Origin: Escherichia coli
GTDB lineage: Bacteria > Pseudomonadota > Gammaproteobacteria > Enterobacterales > Enterobacteriaceae
Assembly: GCF_041248615.1 (NCBI RefSeq)
Contig: NZ_CP158427.1
Direction: 5' to 3' (one strand)
DNA length: 64,000 bases
This document shows, piece after piece, positions 1-15,000 of this stretch. Made by a program: the position numbers. Within the stretch, counting starts at the first letter, position 1. The number at the start of each line of letters is the position of its first letter.

Positions 1-3000
1 TCCTGGGTGACTGCGTGCGTGTTATGGCCACGTTTCCGGGCAATGCTGTCGATTTCATCCTCACCGACCCGCCGTATCTCGTCGGTTTCCGTGACCGTTC
101 CGGGCGCACCATCGCCGGCGATAAAACCGATGAATGGCTGCAACCAGCCTGTAATGAAATGTACCGCGTACTCAAAAAAGACGCGTTAATGGTGAGCTTC
201 TATGGCTGGAACCGCGTCGATCGCTTTATGGCCGCCTGGAAAAATGCGGGATTCAGCGTTGTTGGTCACCTGGTCTTCACCAAAAACTACACATCGAAGG
301 CCGCATATGTGGGCTATCGCCACGAATGTGCCTACATCCTGGCAAAAGGCCGTCCACGTCTGCCACAAAACCCGCTGCCGGACGTGCTGGGCTGGAAATA
401 TTCGGGCAATCGCCATCACCCGACGGAAAAGCCCGTTACCAGCCTGCAACCGCTGATTGAGAGCTTCACACACCCGAACGCAATTGTGCTGGACCCGTTT
501 GCAGGCAGCGGCTCAACCTGCGTCGCCGCCCTCCAGTCCGGACGCCGGTATATCGGTATCGAGCTGCTTGAGCAGTATCACCGTGCCGGGCAGCAACGCC
601 TTGCCGCCGTGCAACGGGCCATGCAGCAGGGGGCCGCGAATGATGACTGGTTTATGCCGGAGGCTGCGTAAATGAACTATGCAGGACACGAAAAACTGCG
701 CGCCGAAGTGGCGGAGGTGGCCAATGCCATGTGCGACCTGCGTACAACCATGAATGAGATGGAGCAGCGGTACAGCTTTAATGCCGACACCCTGCCGGAA
801 CGTCTGGTGCGTCAGACGCTGTTTCGCGCAAACCGCCTCCTGATGGAGGCATATACCGAAATTCTGGAACTGGAAGCGTGCTTTAAAGATTGAGAAGGAG
901 ACGAGAATGTACGGAACATGCGAAACGCTATGCCGGGAGCTGGCAGTAAAGTATCCGGGAGACATGCCGCTGATGCTGGTTATCTGGTCCCCGGAAGAGA
1001 TTCAGGCACTGGCTGACGGTATGGAAATTTCTCTGACCGGTCATGAAATCAGGACCGTCCTGGCACGCCTGGAGGACATCCCGGAAGACCAGCGGATTGA
1101 GTCCGGTATTTCTTCCGCTGCGGTGATGGAGATTATCCGCAACGAGAGCGAAAACCGCCTGGTGACCGTCCCTGCTGAACTGCTGGCGTCCCTGATTCAG
1201 ACCGCTGAACAGGCATTGTGGAAACGTGAATGGGCCGCCCGGGATCATGGCCTCGCCGTCCCGGAATGCGTCACCCGCCGTCAGGAGGTGGTTAATCAGG
1301 CCCGCACCCTGCTGAAAAACAACACACACGAAAACGACTGATGTTATCGCCGCCTGCCCTGTGGGCGGCGATACAGGGAGAACGCTTAATCATGAACGAA
1401 AACAGCACGCTGAACGCACTGATTTGTCGTCACGCCCGCAACCTGCTGCTGGCGCAGGGCTGGCCGGAAGAGACGGATGTTGACCAGCGTAACCCGAAGT
1501 ATCCGGGCTGGATCAGCATTTATGTTCTGCTGGATGCGCCCCGGCTGGCGACGTTACTTATCAACCGTCACGGCGGCGTACTGCCGCCGCTCCTGGCCTC
1601 CGCCATTCAGAAACTGACCGGAACCGGGGCGGAACTGGTACTGTCCGGCAGTCAGTGGCAGTCGCTGCCGGTACTTCCGGCAGACGGAACGCAGGTGTCT
1701 TTCCCGTATGCCGGAGAATGGCTGACCGAAGACGAAATCAGGGCTGTACTTGCGGCGGTGCGCGATGCGGTACGCAGTGTCAGTTGCCGGGTGGCAGAAG
1801 ATGCGCGGCGTATCCGGGCGGCGCTGACCACCACCGGTCAGACGTTGCTGACTCGCCAGACGCGCCGCTTTCGTCTGGTTGTGAAGGAAAGCGATCACCC
1901 CTGCTGGCTCGATGAAGATGACGAAAACCTGCCCGTGGTGCTCGATGCCATCGTGAACCGGGGAGCACGTTTTTCGTCGGTGGAAATGTACCTGGTCAGC
2001 GATTGTATTGAGCATATCCTGTCCAGTGGGCTGGCCTGCGATGTGCTGCGTATACCGGATGAACCGCCCCGCCGCTGGTTTGACCGTGGTGTTCTGCGGG
2101 AGGTGGTCCGGGAAGCCCGGGCCGAAATCCGCAGCATGGCGGATGCCCTGGCAAAAATCCGGAAATGATGACGTTGGCGGGGTAAATCCCCGCCTTTTTC
2201 CTGCCGGTCCCCGGACAGAGCACAAAGGAAGTCGCCGCCGGCTCCGCTTTACCCGGCCATGCAGGGCATGGCCTTGTGGTTTTTCAGTTATGTGGCCTCA
2301 GCGTCGTGTGCGGGCTGTGCCGTGCCTCCATCTTAGCCGGGCTGGCAGGGATGCAAGGGTACGCTTCGCCGCTGCGGTCACCCGGTCCCTCCTTCCCGTC
2401 TGCCGTGATTTTCCGGTCGTTCACCCGCTCAGATTTCGCGGTCTCACCCTCCAACTCCCGCCAGCCGTGTGCGTCAGGCTGCGGCTTCCCTTGCGCCCTG
2501 TGCATCCCCGCCTTATCGCCCGGCTTTTATGGAGGCACGGCACCGCCCGGTGTCGCGGAATATGTGAACAACGGAGGAAAACATCATGCAATATGCGAAA
2601 CCTGTCACTCTGAACGTTGAAGAGTGCGACCGTCTCTCCTTTCTACCGTATCTGTTTGGCAACGATTTTCTGTATGCCGAGGCGTATGTGTACGCGCTGG
2701 CGCAAAAAATGATGCCGGAATATCAGGGAGGCTTCTGGCACTTCATCCGCCTGCCGGACGGTGGCGGTTACATGATGCCGGATGGCGACCGTTTCCACAT
2801 GGTGAACGGTGCAAACTGGTTTGACCGTACCGTGAGTGCTGATGCCGCAGGCATCATTCTGACTTCCCTTGTGATTAACCGCCAGTTGTGGCTGTACCAC
2901 GACAGCGGGGATGCAGGACTGACCCAGCTTTACCGGATGCGCGATGCGCAGTTGTGGCGTCACATCGAATTTCACCCCGAATGCAACGCGATTTACGCGG

Positions 3001-12000: not shown

Positions 12001-15000
12001 GTGAAGGTGGTTTGTTGCCGTGTTGTGTGGCAGAAAGAAGATAGCCCCGTAGTAAGTTAATTTTCATTAACCACCACGAGGCATCCCTATGTCTAGTCCA
12101 CATCAGGATAGCCTCTTACCGCGCTTTGCGCAAGGAGAAGAAGGCCATGAAACTACCACGAAGTTCCCTTGTCTGGTGTGTGTTGATCGTGTGTCTCACA
12201 CTGTTGATATTCACTTATCTGACACGAAAATCGCTGTGCGAGATTCGTTACAGAGACGGACACAGGGAGGTGGCGGCTTTCATGGCTTACGAATCCGGTA
12301 AGTAGCAACCTGGAGGCGGGCGCAGGCCCGCCTTTTCAGGACTGATGCTGGTCTGACTACTGAAGCGCCTTTATAAAGGGGCTGCTGGTTCGCCGGTAGC
12401 CCCTTTCTCCTTGCTGATGTTGTACGGGCATGAACAACCTGACTTCAGGAAGGTCGTTTCCCTTCAGGAACGGGGATGAACGCGCGCCTGCGGCGCCCGT
12501 TCTTTTCCCCCGCCTTCTCTGGTTATGGCCTGTCAGAAATCACATCACCTTCCCTGTGATTATTCTCTTTTTCTTCCTGCTCTGATTCTGACTACTGCAG
12601 TGTTGTCCTGTCTGCCGGGCGCACCTTCGGCTCCCGGCTGCCTGGCGGCATCCGGTCGTCAGGCCCGACTCCGACAGGCAGTTGCTGGCGCACCCGCCAG
12701 TCTCCGCCGAACCCGCTGGCGCGGTTTCGGGCTGTCGCTACGGTCCGATGCGTGAAAACCCCGGGCTTGCAGCGACCGTTCCGGTCGCGCCGCCTCTGTC
12801 GCGCCGTGGCCTGCGCTCCAGGCATCCCGGCAAAAAGACGCCGGGATGTAAGGCGCAACGCCGTTTCGCAAACCGCGCTTCACGTCGTTGCGGCGGGTCC
12901 CTGCCCGTTGTTGTGTCCGGTGCCATTCACCTGTTTAAGCCCCTGTCGCCGGGGGCTGATACAGCCACAACCTGCCGCACCTGTCCAGGGTAAATGAACA
13001 GCCCACAAAATTTTTTACCCAAAACCCGGTAAAAAATTTTGCGTTCTGCCCAGGACAGGTGCGTCAGGCCGTGGCAGTGATGCCCCATGCGGCGAAGGTT
13101 CTCAAACAGGTGATGGTGAATACCGGAGGGAACAAAGAGCAGGTCCCCGCAAAACGTCAAAACCGCGGCTCCCGAAACTCAACAGATGATGGGGGCTGAA
13201 AACCAGAGAGAGGAGAAAGCAGGATGAGTACCCGAAATATCCACGTTAACACCGCGTCGTACACGCTTCTTGTTGCCGGGAAGAAAAAAAACACCGGGGA
13301 AGAGTGGGACGTCCTGGAATTCAGCAGCCTGACTGAGCTGAAAAAATATCGCAAAAGCCACCCGGAAAAGATGGCCTTCAGTTATAGCTACGCGCTCAGT
13401 CAGGGTGTGGATAAGCAGTTCCGCCATATCAACATTGCGGAAGTCGATCACTTCAAACAGTTCCTGCGTCAGATTAAGCGTGCCGGCCTCGATATCCGGG
13501 CGATCTGCTGACCGGATGTGATGAATATCTCTCCTGATTGTTGCAATCTTGTTAATGGAGATCGGGGGGGGATGATATTAAGCGGAAAAATTTTTTATTA
13601 AATTTATTCTTTCATAAAGGAGTAGCTGTTATGCGATTAGCTTCCCGTTTTGGTCGGTATAATTCCATCCGCCGTGAACGTCCTTTAACGGATGATGAAT
13701 TAATGCAGTTCGTGCCTTCGGTATTTTCCGGTGATAAACATGAGTCCCGGAGTGAACGTTATACGTATATTCCAACAATCAATATCATCAATAAGTTACG
13801 TGATGAAGGTTTCCAGCCATTCTTTGCCTGTCAGAGTCGGGTTCGTGATTTGGGACGTCGCGAATACAGTAAACATATGTTACGTCTTCGCAGGGAAGGG
13901 CATATTAACGGACAGGAAGTTCCTGAAATTATCCTGCTTAATTCACATGATGGTTCATCCAGTTATCAGATGATCCCCGGAATTTTTCGTTTTGTCTGCA
14001 CAAATGGCCTGGTGTGCGGAAATAATTTTGGCGAAATCCGCGTTCCACATAAAGGTGATATTGTCGGGCAGGTTATCGAGGGAGCGTATGAAGTGCTCGG
14101 TGTCTTTGATAAGGTCACTGATAATATGGAGGCGATGAAAGAAATTCATCTTAACAGTGACGAGCAACATTTATTTGGCAGAGCTGCACTGATGGTCAGG
14201 TATGAAGATGAAAATAAAACGCCAGTGACACCTGAACAGATAATTACTCCCCGTCGTCGGGAAGACAAACAGAACGATCTCTGGACAACCTGGCAGCGGG
14301 TTCAGGAGAATATGATAAAAGGTGGATTATCGGGGCGAAGTGCCTCCGGGAAAAATACCAGGACAAGAGCCATTACAGGTATTGATGGTGATATAAGAAT
14401 CAACAAGGCGTTATGGGTGATTGCCGAACAGTTCAGAAAGTGGAAGTCATGATAATATAAGTAAAGCCCCGAAAAAATTTTCGGGGCTTTACTTATATTA
14501 TCATTTTTCGGCATTGCTGTGTCGTCTGATATACCTCAATTTCATCGACCGGCTTTCCGGTTGTCTGTAAATATTGTGCCCGCGAAAAATGGTCTGGCAG
14601 GAGGCTGCGCAGTTACCGGGTATATATAAGATGGGTTCCCGCTTCGCGGGGCTTCGGCCAGTCAGTATTGTCACTCATATGATATTTTTGTGTGTGGCCT
14701 TCCATGCTGCTTTTGCGGCATAACCGGTATCTGACAATGTCTGTAAGATTAATTATTCTGCACGCTGTTAATTTCCGGAAGTGATTTCTTCGTGGCCGGA
14801 AGCCGGATACCTTTACTGCTTTTTATCCCGGTATAAATCCGGTAAACCTCTGATGCGTAGGCAAGACGTCTCTGGTTCTGGCGTTCGGATTTCCTGAATC
14901 CTGCATTGTATGCACCAACGGCCTCCCAGGTGACGCCCCATTTTTTAAATGCTATTGCCAGATAATAAGCACCGGTATAAATGTTCATGCAGGGATCTGT

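What the first reader, a model, noticed from the sequence alone, without database searches (positions are those of the whole stretch)
1..14452. Leading region is a dense anti-defence-type island with about ten uncharacterised ORFs
Seen: every gene from 1 to 14.45 kb is on the plus strand. Recognisable ones are all of the establishment or anti-defence type: two orphan methyltransferases (3..671 with DPPY; 6396..6959 with NPPF) with no endonuclease partner, klcA/ardB-type antirestriction, ssb, psiB/psiA (anti-SOS), a ParB-like protein, and hok. Between them sit ORFs I cannot assign: 672..893, 907..1341, 1392..2168, 3058..3480, 3477..3668, 4706..4936, 4988..6349, 8406..8645, 13224..13511, 13631..14452. 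Established: leading regions of conjugative plasmids are enriched for anti-restriction, anti-SOS and other anti-defence functions. Inference: the unassigned ORFs are the best candidates here for undescribed anti-defence or establishment functions, particularly the large DUF3560-like protein and the acidic ~140-aa pair, which could be DNA mimics.
Basis: partly seen in the sequence, partly recalled or inferred. Interest (0 to 1): 0.75.

Follow-up and report, generated by a model that had tools for sequence, protein, structure and literature searches.

The report
F-like plasmid leading region, already catalogued
This is the well-known first-to-enter ("leading") region of an F/R1-type conjugative plasmid, and its unassigned genes are already-listed "known unknowns"; the one new point is that the large DUF3560 protein looks like the missing half of the small methyltransferase encoded next to it.

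Summary
All real genes in 1-14452 are on the + strand, with good ribosome-binding sites and dN/dS of 0.07-0.40 against plasmid F. The stretch is 100% identical over its full length to several plasmid records, including a 97,566-bp one I take to be R1. The nick motif lies on the - strand at 15342-15358, so the transferred strand is the template for every + gene.

There are three ~640-nt Frpo-type single-strand promoters (3848-4489, 7170-7810, 12566-13206). A class-2 (ssp2) hairpin sits upstream of klcA.

The idea of an anti-defence island full of candidate unknowns is already published (Samuel et al. 2024). Seven of the unassigned ORFs match, by name, families in that paper's top-100 table.

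Some specific suggestions fail:
- The ParB-like protein is HerB, a host-expression reprogrammer.
- ygeA/ygeB (orf95/DUF932) matter for transfer even between isogenic strains.
- DUF3560 is unlikely to be a DNA mimic. In 95 of 101 long relatives it is fused to a domain homologous to the adjacent NPPF methyltransferase, so the two genes look like one split enzyme.

The DUF1380 "DNA mimic" idea could not be tested, because the predicted structure was too poor (pLDDT 50).

Verdict: ordinary and already known, with one modest new hypothesis.

The parts
3..671 (+). MTase1: beta-class (DPPY) N6/N4 DNA methyltransferase, 5' end cut by the window. Homologue of the F leading-region methylase, which Wen et al. 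equate with M.EcoGIX.
   Evidence: NF010253 at 486 bits. Pfam N6_N4_Mtase at 2.7e-39. 98.2% identical to the F protein. M.EcoGIX biology.
672..893 (+). orf73: small acidic protein of unknown function (called 'cytoplasmic protein' / YfcA; Samuel family 11).
   Evidence: phrog_4830 at 1e-33. Names. dN/dS 0.18.
907..1341 (+). DUF1380a (YcgB/YfcB type, Samuel family 7). Net charge -10, function unknown.
   Evidence: PGAP name and Pfam PF07128. Paralogue of the gene at 3058-3480. Charge.
1392..2168 (+). orf258: soluble 258-aa protein with no Pfam, NCBIfam or PDB match. Probably Samuel family 10; that assignment is inferred from gene order only.
   Evidence: phrog_8919 at 2e-141. 97.3% identical to the F homologue.
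2311..2555 (-). Class-2 single-strand promoter (ssp2 type): a hairpin on the transferred strand, upstream of klcA.
   Evidence: Across 2169-2585 the F sequence upstream of yfgB differs at only a handful of positions; the region also resembles Samuel's Frpo'4. Fold -107 kcal/mol, z -5.5. Function in F.
2586..3011 (+). KlcA/ArdB-type antirestriction protein (yfgB in F).
   Evidence: Pfam Antirestrict at 1.9e-26. 97.9% identical to the F protein. Role.
3058..3480 (+). DUF1380b (YcjA/YcgC type, Samuel family 14). Net charge -15, function unknown.
   Evidence: AF2 pLDDT 49.7, which is unusable.
3477..3668 (+). YffA: 63-aa protein of unknown function (Samuel family 6).
   Evidence: Names. No family match.
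3848..4489 (-). Frpo/ssi class-1 single-strand promoter, copy 1. It heads the ydaB-DUF3560-MTase2 cassette, which F lacks.
   Evidence: Repeat families D1-D4. Alignment to F ssiD. The most stable transferred-strand folds fall here. F comparison.
4706..4936 (+). YdaB: 76-aa, very basic protein (pI 11.9), Samuel family 1. There is a weak lead to an HU-like domain.
   Evidence: Pfam PF14908 at 5e-4. Not supported by the PDB profile search or by hhalign.
4988..6349 (+). DUF3560 protein (YdbA). Proposed to be the non-catalytic, nucleic-acid-binding half of a split methyltransferase.
   Evidence: 95 of 101 relatives of at least 560 aa carry a C-terminal domain homologous to MTase2. Pfam on the fusions. 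AF2 pLDDT 90.4 for the concatenated pair. AFDB and BFVD hits.
6396..6959 (+). MTase2: a 187-aa catalytic core with gamma-class motifs (FxTP, EPSAGTG, NPPF) and no target-recognition domain.
   Evidence: Foldseek finds M.TaqI, PacII and type I M subunits. PADLOC mad2 at 1.3e-20 and MTase_II at 3e-11. Pfam MTS.
7170..7810 (-). Frpo class-1 promoter, copy 2 (Frpo2/ssp1b position). It heads the ssb-DUF905-herB-psiB-psiA operon.
   Evidence: Fold -111 kcal/mol, z -11.6.. Function in F.
7829..8356 (+). Plasmid Ssb.
   Evidence: NF010292 at 366 bits.
8412..8645 (+). DUF905 (YfjA/YubL/YkfF family). A structure is known, the function is not.
   Evidence: PDB 2HJJ at 4.9e-24. Pfam at 4.7e-36. Zygotic expression in F.
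8704..10662 (+). ParB-like YfjB, renamed HerB: a CTP-binding clamp that reprograms host transcription.
   Evidence: 92.5% identical to the F protein. TIGR00180. Function.
10717..11867 (+). psiB (10717-11151) and psiA (11148-11867), the SOS inhibitors.
   Evidence: NF010255 and NF010258, both above cut-off.
11973..12305 (+). hok/sok (flm) type I toxin-antitoxin locus. hok itself is 12147-12305.
   Evidence: Rfam sok at 88.9 bits. NF007279 at 126 bits.
12566..13206 (-). Frpo class-1 promoter, copy 3 (Frpo1/ssp1a position). It heads orf95 and DUF932.
   Evidence: Function in F.
13224..13511 (+). orf95, the homologue of F ygeA.
   Evidence: 96.8% identical to the F ORF immediately downstream of Frpo1. 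Deleting ygeA drops F transfer from 92.6% to 3.9%.
13631..14452 (+). DUF932 protein, the homologue of F ygeB/YubP (Samuel family 3).
   Evidence: Pfam DUF932 at 2.8e-52. 99.3% identical to the F protein. A deletion of ygeB alone could not be obtained in F.
15342..15358 (-). F-type oriT nick-region motif GTGGGGTGTGGTGCTTT. It defines the - strand as the transferred strand.
   Evidence: Exact match on the - strand. That this is the F nic-region sequence is recalled from memory.

Best explanation
The stretch is the canonical leading region of an F-like (IncF, R1-type) conjugative plasmid.

Transfer starts at the nick near 15.35 kb, and the - strand enters the recipient 5' end first. Every + strand gene can therefore be transcribed from the incoming single strand.

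Transcription starts at hairpin-forming single-strand promoters. The window holds three Frpo class-1 copies and one class-2 (ssp2) element. A class-3 element presumably lies just left of the window. These give five operons that are switched on at entry ('zygotic induction') and off once the complementary strand is made.

Their products act in several ways:
- Two methyltransferase systems modify the incoming DNA.
- KlcA/ArdB blocks type I restriction.
- Ssb, PsiB and PsiA coat single-stranded DNA and damp the SOS response.
- HerB reprograms host transcription.
- hok/sok stabilises the region.
- YgeA/YgeB are needed for efficient transfer by an unknown route.

The specific inference made here concerns the DUF3560 protein and the 187-aa NPPF methyltransferase. 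I propose they are two subunits of one enzyme, in which DUF3560 supplies the nucleic-acid-binding or targeting part that the catalytic core lacks. I also propose that the ydaB-DUF3560-MTase2 cassette is an optional Frpo-driven module.

What is shown: the sequence relationships, the repeats, the folds and the fusions. What is taken from literature on F and pESBL: the timing of expression and the phenotypes. What is inferred: that the two proteins form a complex, and that its substrate is DNA.
For: Identity to known plasmids: 100% over all 14452 nt to several records, including the 97,566-bp record NZ_KY749247.1. At least 5000 records match, and 1119 cover at least 80%. Gene order is the same as in F apart from one cassette, and the proteins are 75-99.6% identical to their F counterparts.

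Transferred strand: the nick motif matches exactly at 15342-15358 on the - strand.

Promoters:
- Three repeats align to F ssiD/Frpo.
- The transferred-strand fold of copy 2 is -111 kcal/mol, z -11.6.
- An unbiased sliding fold scan picks out only the three Frpo cores and oriT.
- The klcA-upstream region is nearly identical to the F sequence upstream of yfgB, where ssp2 lies, and folds at z -5.5.

Published function:
- Frpo1 and Frpo2 drive early, transient expression.
- There are four operons and three promoter classes.
- ssp2 acts as a replication roadblock and drives yfgB, the ArdB homologue.
- M.EcoGIX is a single-strand-specific m6A methylase that protects the plasmid on entry.
- HerB reprograms the host.

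Split methyltransferase:
- 3881 relatives were found. 95 of the 101 that are at least 560 aa long carry a C-terminal domain matching MTase2, at E 6e-4 to 4e-41 and better than 1e-15 in all but two.
- All 81 aligned sequences have DUF3560, and 79 of 81 have MTS at E<=0.1.
- EPSAGTG and NPPF are invariant or nearly so across the fusions.
- The AF2 model of the concatenated pair has pLDDT 90.4.
- The catalytic core resembles M.TaqI, PacII and type I M subunits but has no recognition domain.
- PADLOC DNA-methylase models match it.
- Fused forms occur in Pandoraea, Pelobacter, a delta-proteobacterium, planctomycetes and an actinobacterium.
- An independent split arrangement, with overlapping genes, occurs on a phage-like contig.
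- The cassette is inherited as a unit in at least 4780 plasmid records.
Against: No experiment here or in the papers I read addresses the DUF3560 protein or MTase2.

Substrate: the MTase2 core also matches rRNA adenine methylases (Erm, KsgA) and PrmC, all below their cut-offs. Pfam's best match is MTS, a family of rRNA and protein methylases. The substrate could therefore be RNA or protein.

Complex formation: the AF2 run used an artificial concatenation, and inter-domain confidence (PAE) was not available to me. The model does not show that the two separate proteins bind each other.

Context: one non-fused relative had no methylase immediately downstream.

Promoters: activity of Frpo copy 1 and of the class-2 element on this particular plasmid is inferred from homology, not measured.

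Remaining unknowns: for orf73, DUF1380a, DUF1380b, orf258, YffA, YdaB and DUF905, no mechanism is supported by any result.
Confidence: 0.85

Rival explanations
1. The unassigned ORFs are direct inhibitors of host defence systems. In particular, the acidic DUF1380 pair are DNA mimics that titrate restriction enzymes, and the DUF3560 protein is a stand-alone anti-defence protein.
For: The setting fits: a leading region, genes templated by the transferred strand, and single-strand promoters upstream. Anti-defence enrichment in such regions is published. Each DUF1380 gene sits in an operon with an anti-restriction function: MTase1 for DUF1380a and KlcA for DUF1380b. Net charges are -10 and -15.
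Against: DUF1380 acidity (17% and 21% D+E) is close to that of KlcA and PsiB, which, from memory, are not DNA mimics. It is also well below what I recall for Ocr and ArdA. There is no match to any anti-restriction, PDB or defence-related profile. AF2 gave pLDDT 49.7, so no fold comparison was possible. DUF3560 is basic (pI 8.9) and is fused to a methylase in most relatives, which argues against a mimic or an independent inhibitor.
Confidence: 0.15
2. The DUF3560-MTase2 pair is a real two-part methyltransferase, but it modifies host RNA or protein (for example rRNA, tRNA or a release factor) to reprogram the recipient. It does not protect plasmid DNA.
For: NCBIfam's best matches are Erm, KsgA and PrmC, and Pfam's best is MTS. 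Foldseek also lists Trm11, ErmE and Dim1. HerB shows that leading-region proteins can act on host physiology.
Against: The top structural match is M.TaqI, followed by PacII and type I M subunits. PADLOC DNA-methylase models score better (mad2 1.3e-20, MTase_II 3e-11) than the rRNA-methylase models (about 1e-8). The N-terminal QLFVTP motif resembles motif X of gamma-class DNA amino-methylases; this last point is from memory, not tested. BFVD gives long alignments to phage proteins labelled DNA methylase.
Confidence: 0.15
3. Most of the unassigned ORFs are establishment or host-manipulation factors, acting on replication priming, single-stranded DNA handling or host physiology. They are not counter-defence proteins.
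For: Deleting ygeA lowers transfer of F between isogenic K-12 strains from 92.6% to 3.9%, and ygeB could not be deleted alone. HerB lowers acquisition cost without affecting transfer frequency. Plasmid Ssb speeds the first plasmid duplications. DUF905 is co-transcribed with ssb, herB and psiB.
Against: Loss of ssp2, and with it the klcA operon, reduces transfer specifically into non-isogenic, restriction-proficient hosts. At least that operon therefore acts against defence. There are no data on orf73, DUF1380, orf258, YffA or YdaB.
Confidence: 0.4

Closest known systems
Leading regions of plasmids F and R1 (IncF, MOBF)
   Same: 100% nucleotide identity over the whole stretch to several plasmid records, including the 97,566-bp record NZ_KY749247.1. 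Table 1 of PMC11602122 lists R1 at that exact length, so I take that record to be R1. Gene order matches F, and the proteins are 75-99.6% identical to their F counterparts. The Frpo elements, ssp2, hok/sok and the position of oriT also match.
   Different: F lacks the roughly 3.3-kb cassette of Frpo copy 1 plus ydaB, DUF3560 and MTase2. F's single Frpo2 intergenic region reads as a hybrid of the left part of copy 1 and the right part of copy 2.
Anti-defence islands of plasmid leading regions (Samuel et al. 2024, PMC11541004)
   Same: The concept is the same: genes coded so that the transferred strand is the template, Frpo promoters, orphan methylases, Ssb, PsiB, toxin-antitoxin genes, and many uncharacterised families. 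Seven of the unassigned ORFs here match, by name or DUF, that paper's families 1, 2, 3, 6, 7, 11 and 28. DUF1380b (family 14) and orf258 (family 10) are assigned less securely, and orf95 was not mapped.
   Different: That paper labels family 28 'DUF3560; Methyltransferase domain protein', on the strength of a structural hit to A0A212J123. Here that hit is shown to be a fusion protein. The IncF gene itself has no methylase domain; the methylase is the next gene.
M.EcoGIX / M.BceJIII single-strand-specific plasmid methyltransferases (Fomenkov et al. 2020, PMC7736820)
   Same: MTase1 is a beta-class DPPY enzyme in the same position as the F homologue of M.EcoGIX. The proposed role of the DUF3560-MTase2 pair, protective methylation at entry, is modelled on it.
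   Different: MTase2 has the gamma-class motif order with NPPF, is only 187 aa long, and has a separate 453-aa partner. No activity data exist for it.
Gamma-class N6-adenine DNA methyltransferases (M.TaqI, type I HsdM)
   Same: The catalytic Rossmann core and the motifs EPSAGTG and NPPF are shared. These are the best Foldseek matches.
   Different: M.TaqI carries its own recognition domain, and HsdM uses HsdS. MTase2 has neither. Its partner is a DUF3560 protein with no detectable similarity to HsdS (no PDB sequence match).
HerB (YfjB) ParB-like host-expression reprogrammer (PMC13370423)
   Same: The protein at window 8704-10662 is 92.5% identical to F YfjB. It has a ParB N-terminal domain.
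   Different: None detected. It counts against a purely anti-defence reading of the island.

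Membership tests
F-like plasmid leading region | It lies directly next to oriT, on the side that enters the recipient first. 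| tested here: met
   The F-type nick motif matches exactly at 15342-15358 on the - strand. traM starts at 15682 and the region lies at lower coordinates. That the motif is the F nic sequence is from memory.
F-like plasmid leading region | It carries ssb, psiB, psiA and hok/sok (flm) in the conserved order. | tested here: met
   NCBIfam and Rfam matches above cut-off. Same order as in F.
F-like plasmid leading region | Its genes are expressed early and transiently in transconjugants. | not testable with these tools
   Shown for F and pESBL in the literature. Inferred here from 75-99.6% protein identity and from the promoter homology.
Frpo/ssi class-1 single-strand promoter | Sequence homology to F ssiD/Frpo on the transferred strand. 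| tested here: met
   All three copies align along the whole of F ssiD.
Frpo/ssi class-1 single-strand promoter | A long, stable hairpin forms on the transferred strand. | tested here: met
   -111 kcal/mol, z -11.6. These are the strongest fold outliers in 1-16000.
Frpo/ssi class-1 single-strand promoter | RNA polymerase starts transcription from the single-stranded form. | not testable with these tools
   Demonstrated for the F copies.
Class-2 single-strand promoter (ssp2) | Homology to the F element upstream of yfgB, plus a hairpin. | tested here: met
   Nearly identical to the F sequence upstream of yfgB. Fold z -5.5. It did not stand out in the GC-corrected 300-nt scan.
Beta-class DNA amino-methyltransferase (M.EcoGIX type), for MTase1 | DPPY (motif IV) comes before the FxGxG AdoMet motif, and the protein scores above the family cut-off. 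| tested here: met
   DPPY lies near the N-terminus and FAGSGS near the C-terminus. NF010253 scores 486 bits against a cut-off of 244.
Beta-class DNA amino-methyltransferase (M.EcoGIX type), for MTase1 | Single-strand-specific, promiscuous m6A activity. | not testable with these tools
   Known only for M.EcoGIX and M.BceJIII.
Gamma-class N6-adenine DNA methyltransferase, for MTase2 | The AdoMet motif (xPxxGxG) comes before NPPF/Y, within a Rossmann core. | tested here: met
   EPSAGTG and NPPF are invariant or nearly so in 81 sequences. Foldseek matches M.TaqI and type I M subunits.
Gamma-class N6-adenine DNA methyltransferase, for MTase2 | The same polypeptide carries a target-recognition domain. 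| tested here: not met
   At 187 aa the protein is a catalytic core only. Hence the proposal that the DUF3560 protein supplies this function.
Gamma-class N6-adenine DNA methyltransferase, for MTase2 | The substrate is DNA. | tested here: inconclusive
   PADLOC DNA-methylase models match at up to 1.3e-20. Erm, KsgA and PrmC also match, at about 1e-8.
DNA-mimic antirestriction proteins (ArdA/Ocr type), for the DUF1380 pair | Sequence or profile similarity to ArdA or Ocr. | tested here: not met
   DUF1380a has no PDB sequence match. Neither paralogue has a relevant NCBIfam or PADLOC match.
DNA-mimic antirestriction proteins (ArdA/Ocr type), for the DUF1380 pair | An elongated fold with acidic residues arrayed like DNA phosphates. 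| tested here: inconclusive
   AF2 pLDDT 49.7 with a shallow alignment. Only bulk charge is known: -10 and -15.
HU/IHF-like DNA-binding proteins, for YdaB | A significant profile match to an HU-fold family. | tested here: inconclusive
   Pfam PF14908 at E 5e-4 over 39 residues. There is no support from the PDB profile search or from hhalign against HupA.

The most novel reading that the evidence does not exclude
The DUF3560 protein and the adjacent 187-aa NPPF methyltransferase form a two-subunit DNA methyltransferase, made from an Frpo promoter within minutes of plasmid entry. DUF3560 would be a previously unrecognised DNA-targeting module, possibly specific for single-stranded DNA. It would be a second protective methylation system in F-like plasmids, independent of the M.EcoGIX type.
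Probability: 0.45. Interest if true: 0.5.

Novelty: already known. Interest (0 to 1): 0.3.

Why it matters
F-like plasmids carry a large share of acquired resistance genes in E. coli, and their leading region decides whether a newly transferred plasmid survives. The region and the "anti-defence island" idea are already in the literature, so this finding adds no new object.

What remains open is the function of about eight conserved small proteins. The fusion evidence turns two of the catalogued genes (DUF3560/YdbA and the small methylase) into one testable enzyme. It also clarifies why that family was labelled "methyltransferase domain protein".

Tried and rejected
1. NCBIfam, PHROGs, PADLOC and Pfam scans of the unassigned ORFs returned only DUF or unknown-function families.

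2. PDB sequence searches:
- Nothing for DUF3560, DUF1380a or orf258.
- Only chance-level hits for DUF932 and YdaB.
- DUF905 matches YkfF (2HJJ), whose function is unknown.

3. AF2 of DUF1380b with a 37-sequence alignment gave pLDDT 49.7, so no fold search was run on it. The family is narrow (986 clusters) and is essentially two sequence types plus chimeras.

4. The HU-like lead for YdaB (Pfam, 5e-4) was not confirmed by the profile search against the PDB or by hhalign against HupA.

5. A possible DUF905-like module inside DUF3560 (PHROG, E 0.0033) and a DUF905 relationship for orf95 were not confirmed by BLASTP.

6. Fold searches with the concatenated model were dominated by the methylase domain. 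They say little about the fold of the DUF3560 part.

7. Near-identical 582-aa "fusions" in raw assemblies (P0154, P0155) were set aside as possible read-through or assembly artefacts. The argument rests instead on the 43-57% identical cluster representatives.

8. No paralogues of the unassigned ORFs exist elsewhere in the 64-kb window.

Full report
**Observation**

Each has a GGAG-type ribosome-binding site upstream.

Two start codons are better placed elsewhere:
- DUF905 more likely starts at 8412.
- The ORF at 1392 could also begin at 1341.

MTase1 is cut by the window start.

All 18 credible genes between 1 and 14452 are on the + strand. The minus-strand ORFs that some annotations list fall inside repeated non-coding elements or the hok/sok region.

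The recognised genes are confirmed:
- MTase1, Ssb, PsiB, PsiA and Hok pass their NCBIfam cut-offs.
- The ParB-like protein passes the ParB domain model.
- KlcA matches Pfam Antirestrict.
- sok RNA is found by Rfam.

The unassigned ORFs are real genes:
- Each exact protein occurs on about 1000 contigs, the counting cap.
- For the eight that F carries, dN/dS against F is 0.07-0.40, like KlcA, PsiB and HerB. The counts for orf95 and YffA are very small.

**What the stretch is**

It is 100% identical over its full 14452 nt to several plasmid records. At least 5000 records match, and 1119 cover at least 80%.

One full-length match is NZ_KY749247.1, at 97,566 bp. Table 1 of PMC11602122 lists R1 at exactly that length, so I take that record to be R1.

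Plasmid F has the same genes in the same order, at 75-99.6% protein identity. The exception is one cassette, described below.

traM starts at 15682. An F-type nick motif, GTGGGGTGTGGTGCTTT, matches exactly at 15342-15358 on the - strand. That this is the F nic-region sequence is from my own knowledge.

The - strand is therefore the transferred strand. It enters with this region first, and it is the template for every + gene.

Repeat finding gives three direct repeats of about 640 nt, 96-99% identical: 3848-4489, 7170-7810 and 12566-13206.

- On the - strand they align along the whole of F ssiD/Frpo. I took that sequence from Samuel et al., Supplementary Table 2.
- Copy 2, folded as single-stranded DNA, gives -111 kcal/mol, z -11.6.
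- A sliding fold scan of the - strand over 1-16000, corrected for GC, picks out only these three cores and oriT.

The non-coding stretch 2169-2585 upstream of klcA is nearly identical to the F sequence upstream of yfgB. It also resembles Samuel's Frpo'4 candidate. It folds into a long hairpin at z -5.5. In F, that location holds ssp2.

The published work on F and pESBL shows the following:
- These elements are promoters active only on single-stranded DNA.
- They fall into three classes and head four operons in F.
- ssp2 also stalls complementary-strand synthesis until UvrD resolves it, which prolongs early expression.

The window therefore holds five operons:
- MTase1, orf73, DUF1380a and orf258. 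The promoter lies left of the window.
- ssp2, then klcA, DUF1380b and yffA.
- Frpo copy 1, then ydaB, DUF3560 and MTase2.
- Frpo copy 2, then ssb, DUF905, herB, psiB and psiA, followed by hok/sok.
- Frpo copy 3, then orf95 (ygeA) and DUF932 (ygeB).

**Comparison with what is known**

Seven of the ten unassigned ORFs map by source name or DUF to families in that paper's top-100 table:

| ORF | Samuel family |
|---|---|
| YdaB | 1 |
| DUF905 | 2 |
| DUF932 | 3 |
| YffA | 6 |
| DUF1380a | 7 |
| orf73 | 11 |
| DUF3560 | 28 |

DUF1380b maps to family 14 through a related protein named YcjA. orf258 is placed in family 10 by gene order only. I did not map orf95.

- The ParB-like protein is YfjB/HerB. 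It binds the host chromosome, reprograms transcription and lowers acquisition cost without changing transfer frequency.
- Deleting ygeA drops transfer between isogenic K-12 strains from 92.6% to 3.9%, and ygeB could not be deleted alone.
- MTase1 is 98.2% identical to the F methylase that Wen et al. call the M.EcoGIX homologue. M.EcoGIX methylates single-stranded DNA promiscuously and protects the plasmid on entry.

**The DUF3560 protein**

A full scan of 1.84 billion cluster representatives found 3881 relatives. Most of those at 43-57% identity are 650-700 aa long, not 453.

I searched the top 147 with MTase2 as the query. Of the 101 that are at least 560 aa long, 95 carry a C-terminal domain homologous to MTase2. 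E-values run from 6e-4 to 4e-41 and are better than 1e-15 in all but two.

Further evidence:
- In an alignment of 80 fusions with the concatenated window proteins, all 81 sequences have Pfam DUF3560 and 79 have MTS at E<=0.1.
- The motifs EPSAGTG and NPPF are invariant or nearly so.
- AF2 on this alignment gave pLDDT 90.4.
- The methylase part matches M.TaqI, PacII and type I M subunits.
- PADLOC DNA-methylase models also match it.
- At 187 aa, MTase2 is a catalytic core with no recognition domain.
- Fused forms occur in distant bacteria and sit in mobile elements.
- A phage-like contig has an independent split version with overlapping genes.

I therefore read DUF3560 and MTase2 as one split enzyme, with DUF3560 as the targeting part. 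It is not a DNA mimic; its pI is 8.9.

The DNA substrate is inferred. Erm, KsgA and PrmC models also match weakly.

**The cassette**

F lacks Frpo copy 1, ydaB, the DUF3560 gene and MTase2. F's single Frpo2 intergenic region matches copy 1 on its left and copy 2 on its right. The cassette is therefore gained or lost by recombination between Frpo repeats. It is present as a unit in at least 4780 plasmid records.

**The acidic pair**

DUF1380a and DUF1380b are paralogues: 29% identity, E 2e-7. Their net charges are -10 and -15. That is comparable to KlcA and PsiB and, from memory, well short of Ocr or ArdA.

The family is small and shallow. AF2 failed, with pLDDT 49.7. The DNA-mimic idea is untested, and I rate it unlikely.

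**Other unknowns**

- orf73, orf258 and YffA have no informative match in any library.
- YdaB is very basic and has a weak Pfam hit to an HU-like domain, which other tests did not support.
- DUF905 has a solved structure without a known function.

**Verdict**

The object is ordinary: the leading region of an R1-type plasmid. The only new element is the split-methyltransferase hypothesis, which is cheap to test.

Noticed in passing
window 3848-7169, compared with L002 9839-10643: The ydaB-DUF3560-MTase2 cassette is bracketed by Frpo copies 1 and 2. Plasmid F lacks it, and F's single Frpo2 region is a hybrid of the left part of copy 1 and the right part of copy 2. Recombination between Frpo repeats seems to add or remove the cassette.
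   Followed up: yes
window 907-1341 and 3058-3480: Some database DUF1380 proteins (P0427, P0441) have an a-type N-terminus and a b-type C-terminus. Recombination between the two paralogues would delete orf258, ssp2 and klcA.
   Followed up: partly
window 6357-6378: A hairpin made only of G and C (CCCCCCGGG AAAT CCCCGGGGG) sits between the DUF3560 stop codon (6347-6349) and the MTase2 start (6396). Its role is unknown; it might couple or attenuate expression.
   Followed up: no
window 14749-15396 (-): The long ORF call for the lytic transglycosylase (geneX) overlaps the nick motif at 15342-15358. A start at 15258 gives a 169-aa protein beginning [12 protein letters not shown], which looks like a signal peptide and which I believe matches F orf169.
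   Followed up: partly
window 3874-4443, 7196-7764 and 12592-13160, both strands: Near-identical ORFs of 60-116 aa recur three times inside the Frpo repeats. Some are annotated as hypothetical proteins in RefSeq records. They are probably artefacts of a G+C-rich structured element.
   Followed up: partly
window about 13200: G+C content falls from about 0.58 to about 0.43 at the right edge of Frpo copy 3 and stays low through orf95, DUF932, geneX, oriT and traM.
   Followed up: no
window 4988-6959 and the Frpo repeats: A published survey (PMC6965323) lists K. pneumoniae chromosomal CRISPR spacers against a DUF3560 gene, a SAM-dependent methyltransferase and hok/sok. Two of the listed spacers resemble Frpo repeat sequence by eye, one of them tabulated as a DUF3560-gene target. 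I did not search the spacers against this window.
   Followed up: no
window 6396-6959: The best PADLOC match of MTase2 is mad2, a component of the mads_2 system model (E 1.3e-20, profile positions 269-443 of 492).
   Followed up: no
window 12147-12305: RefSeq annotates hok as 41 aa, starting at 12180. The NCBIfam Hok model aligns end to end (1-52 of 52) with a start at 12147.
   Followed up: partly
window 16156-16265: The traJ 5' UTR and the antisense FinP RNA are detected by Rfam just right of traM, as expected for an F-like transfer region.
   Followed up: no
window 5759-5950 (DUF3560 residues 258-321): There is a weak PHROG match to the DUF905 family (E 0.0033), with a shared W-x-N-x-Y motif. 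BLASTP did not confirm it.
   Followed up: partly
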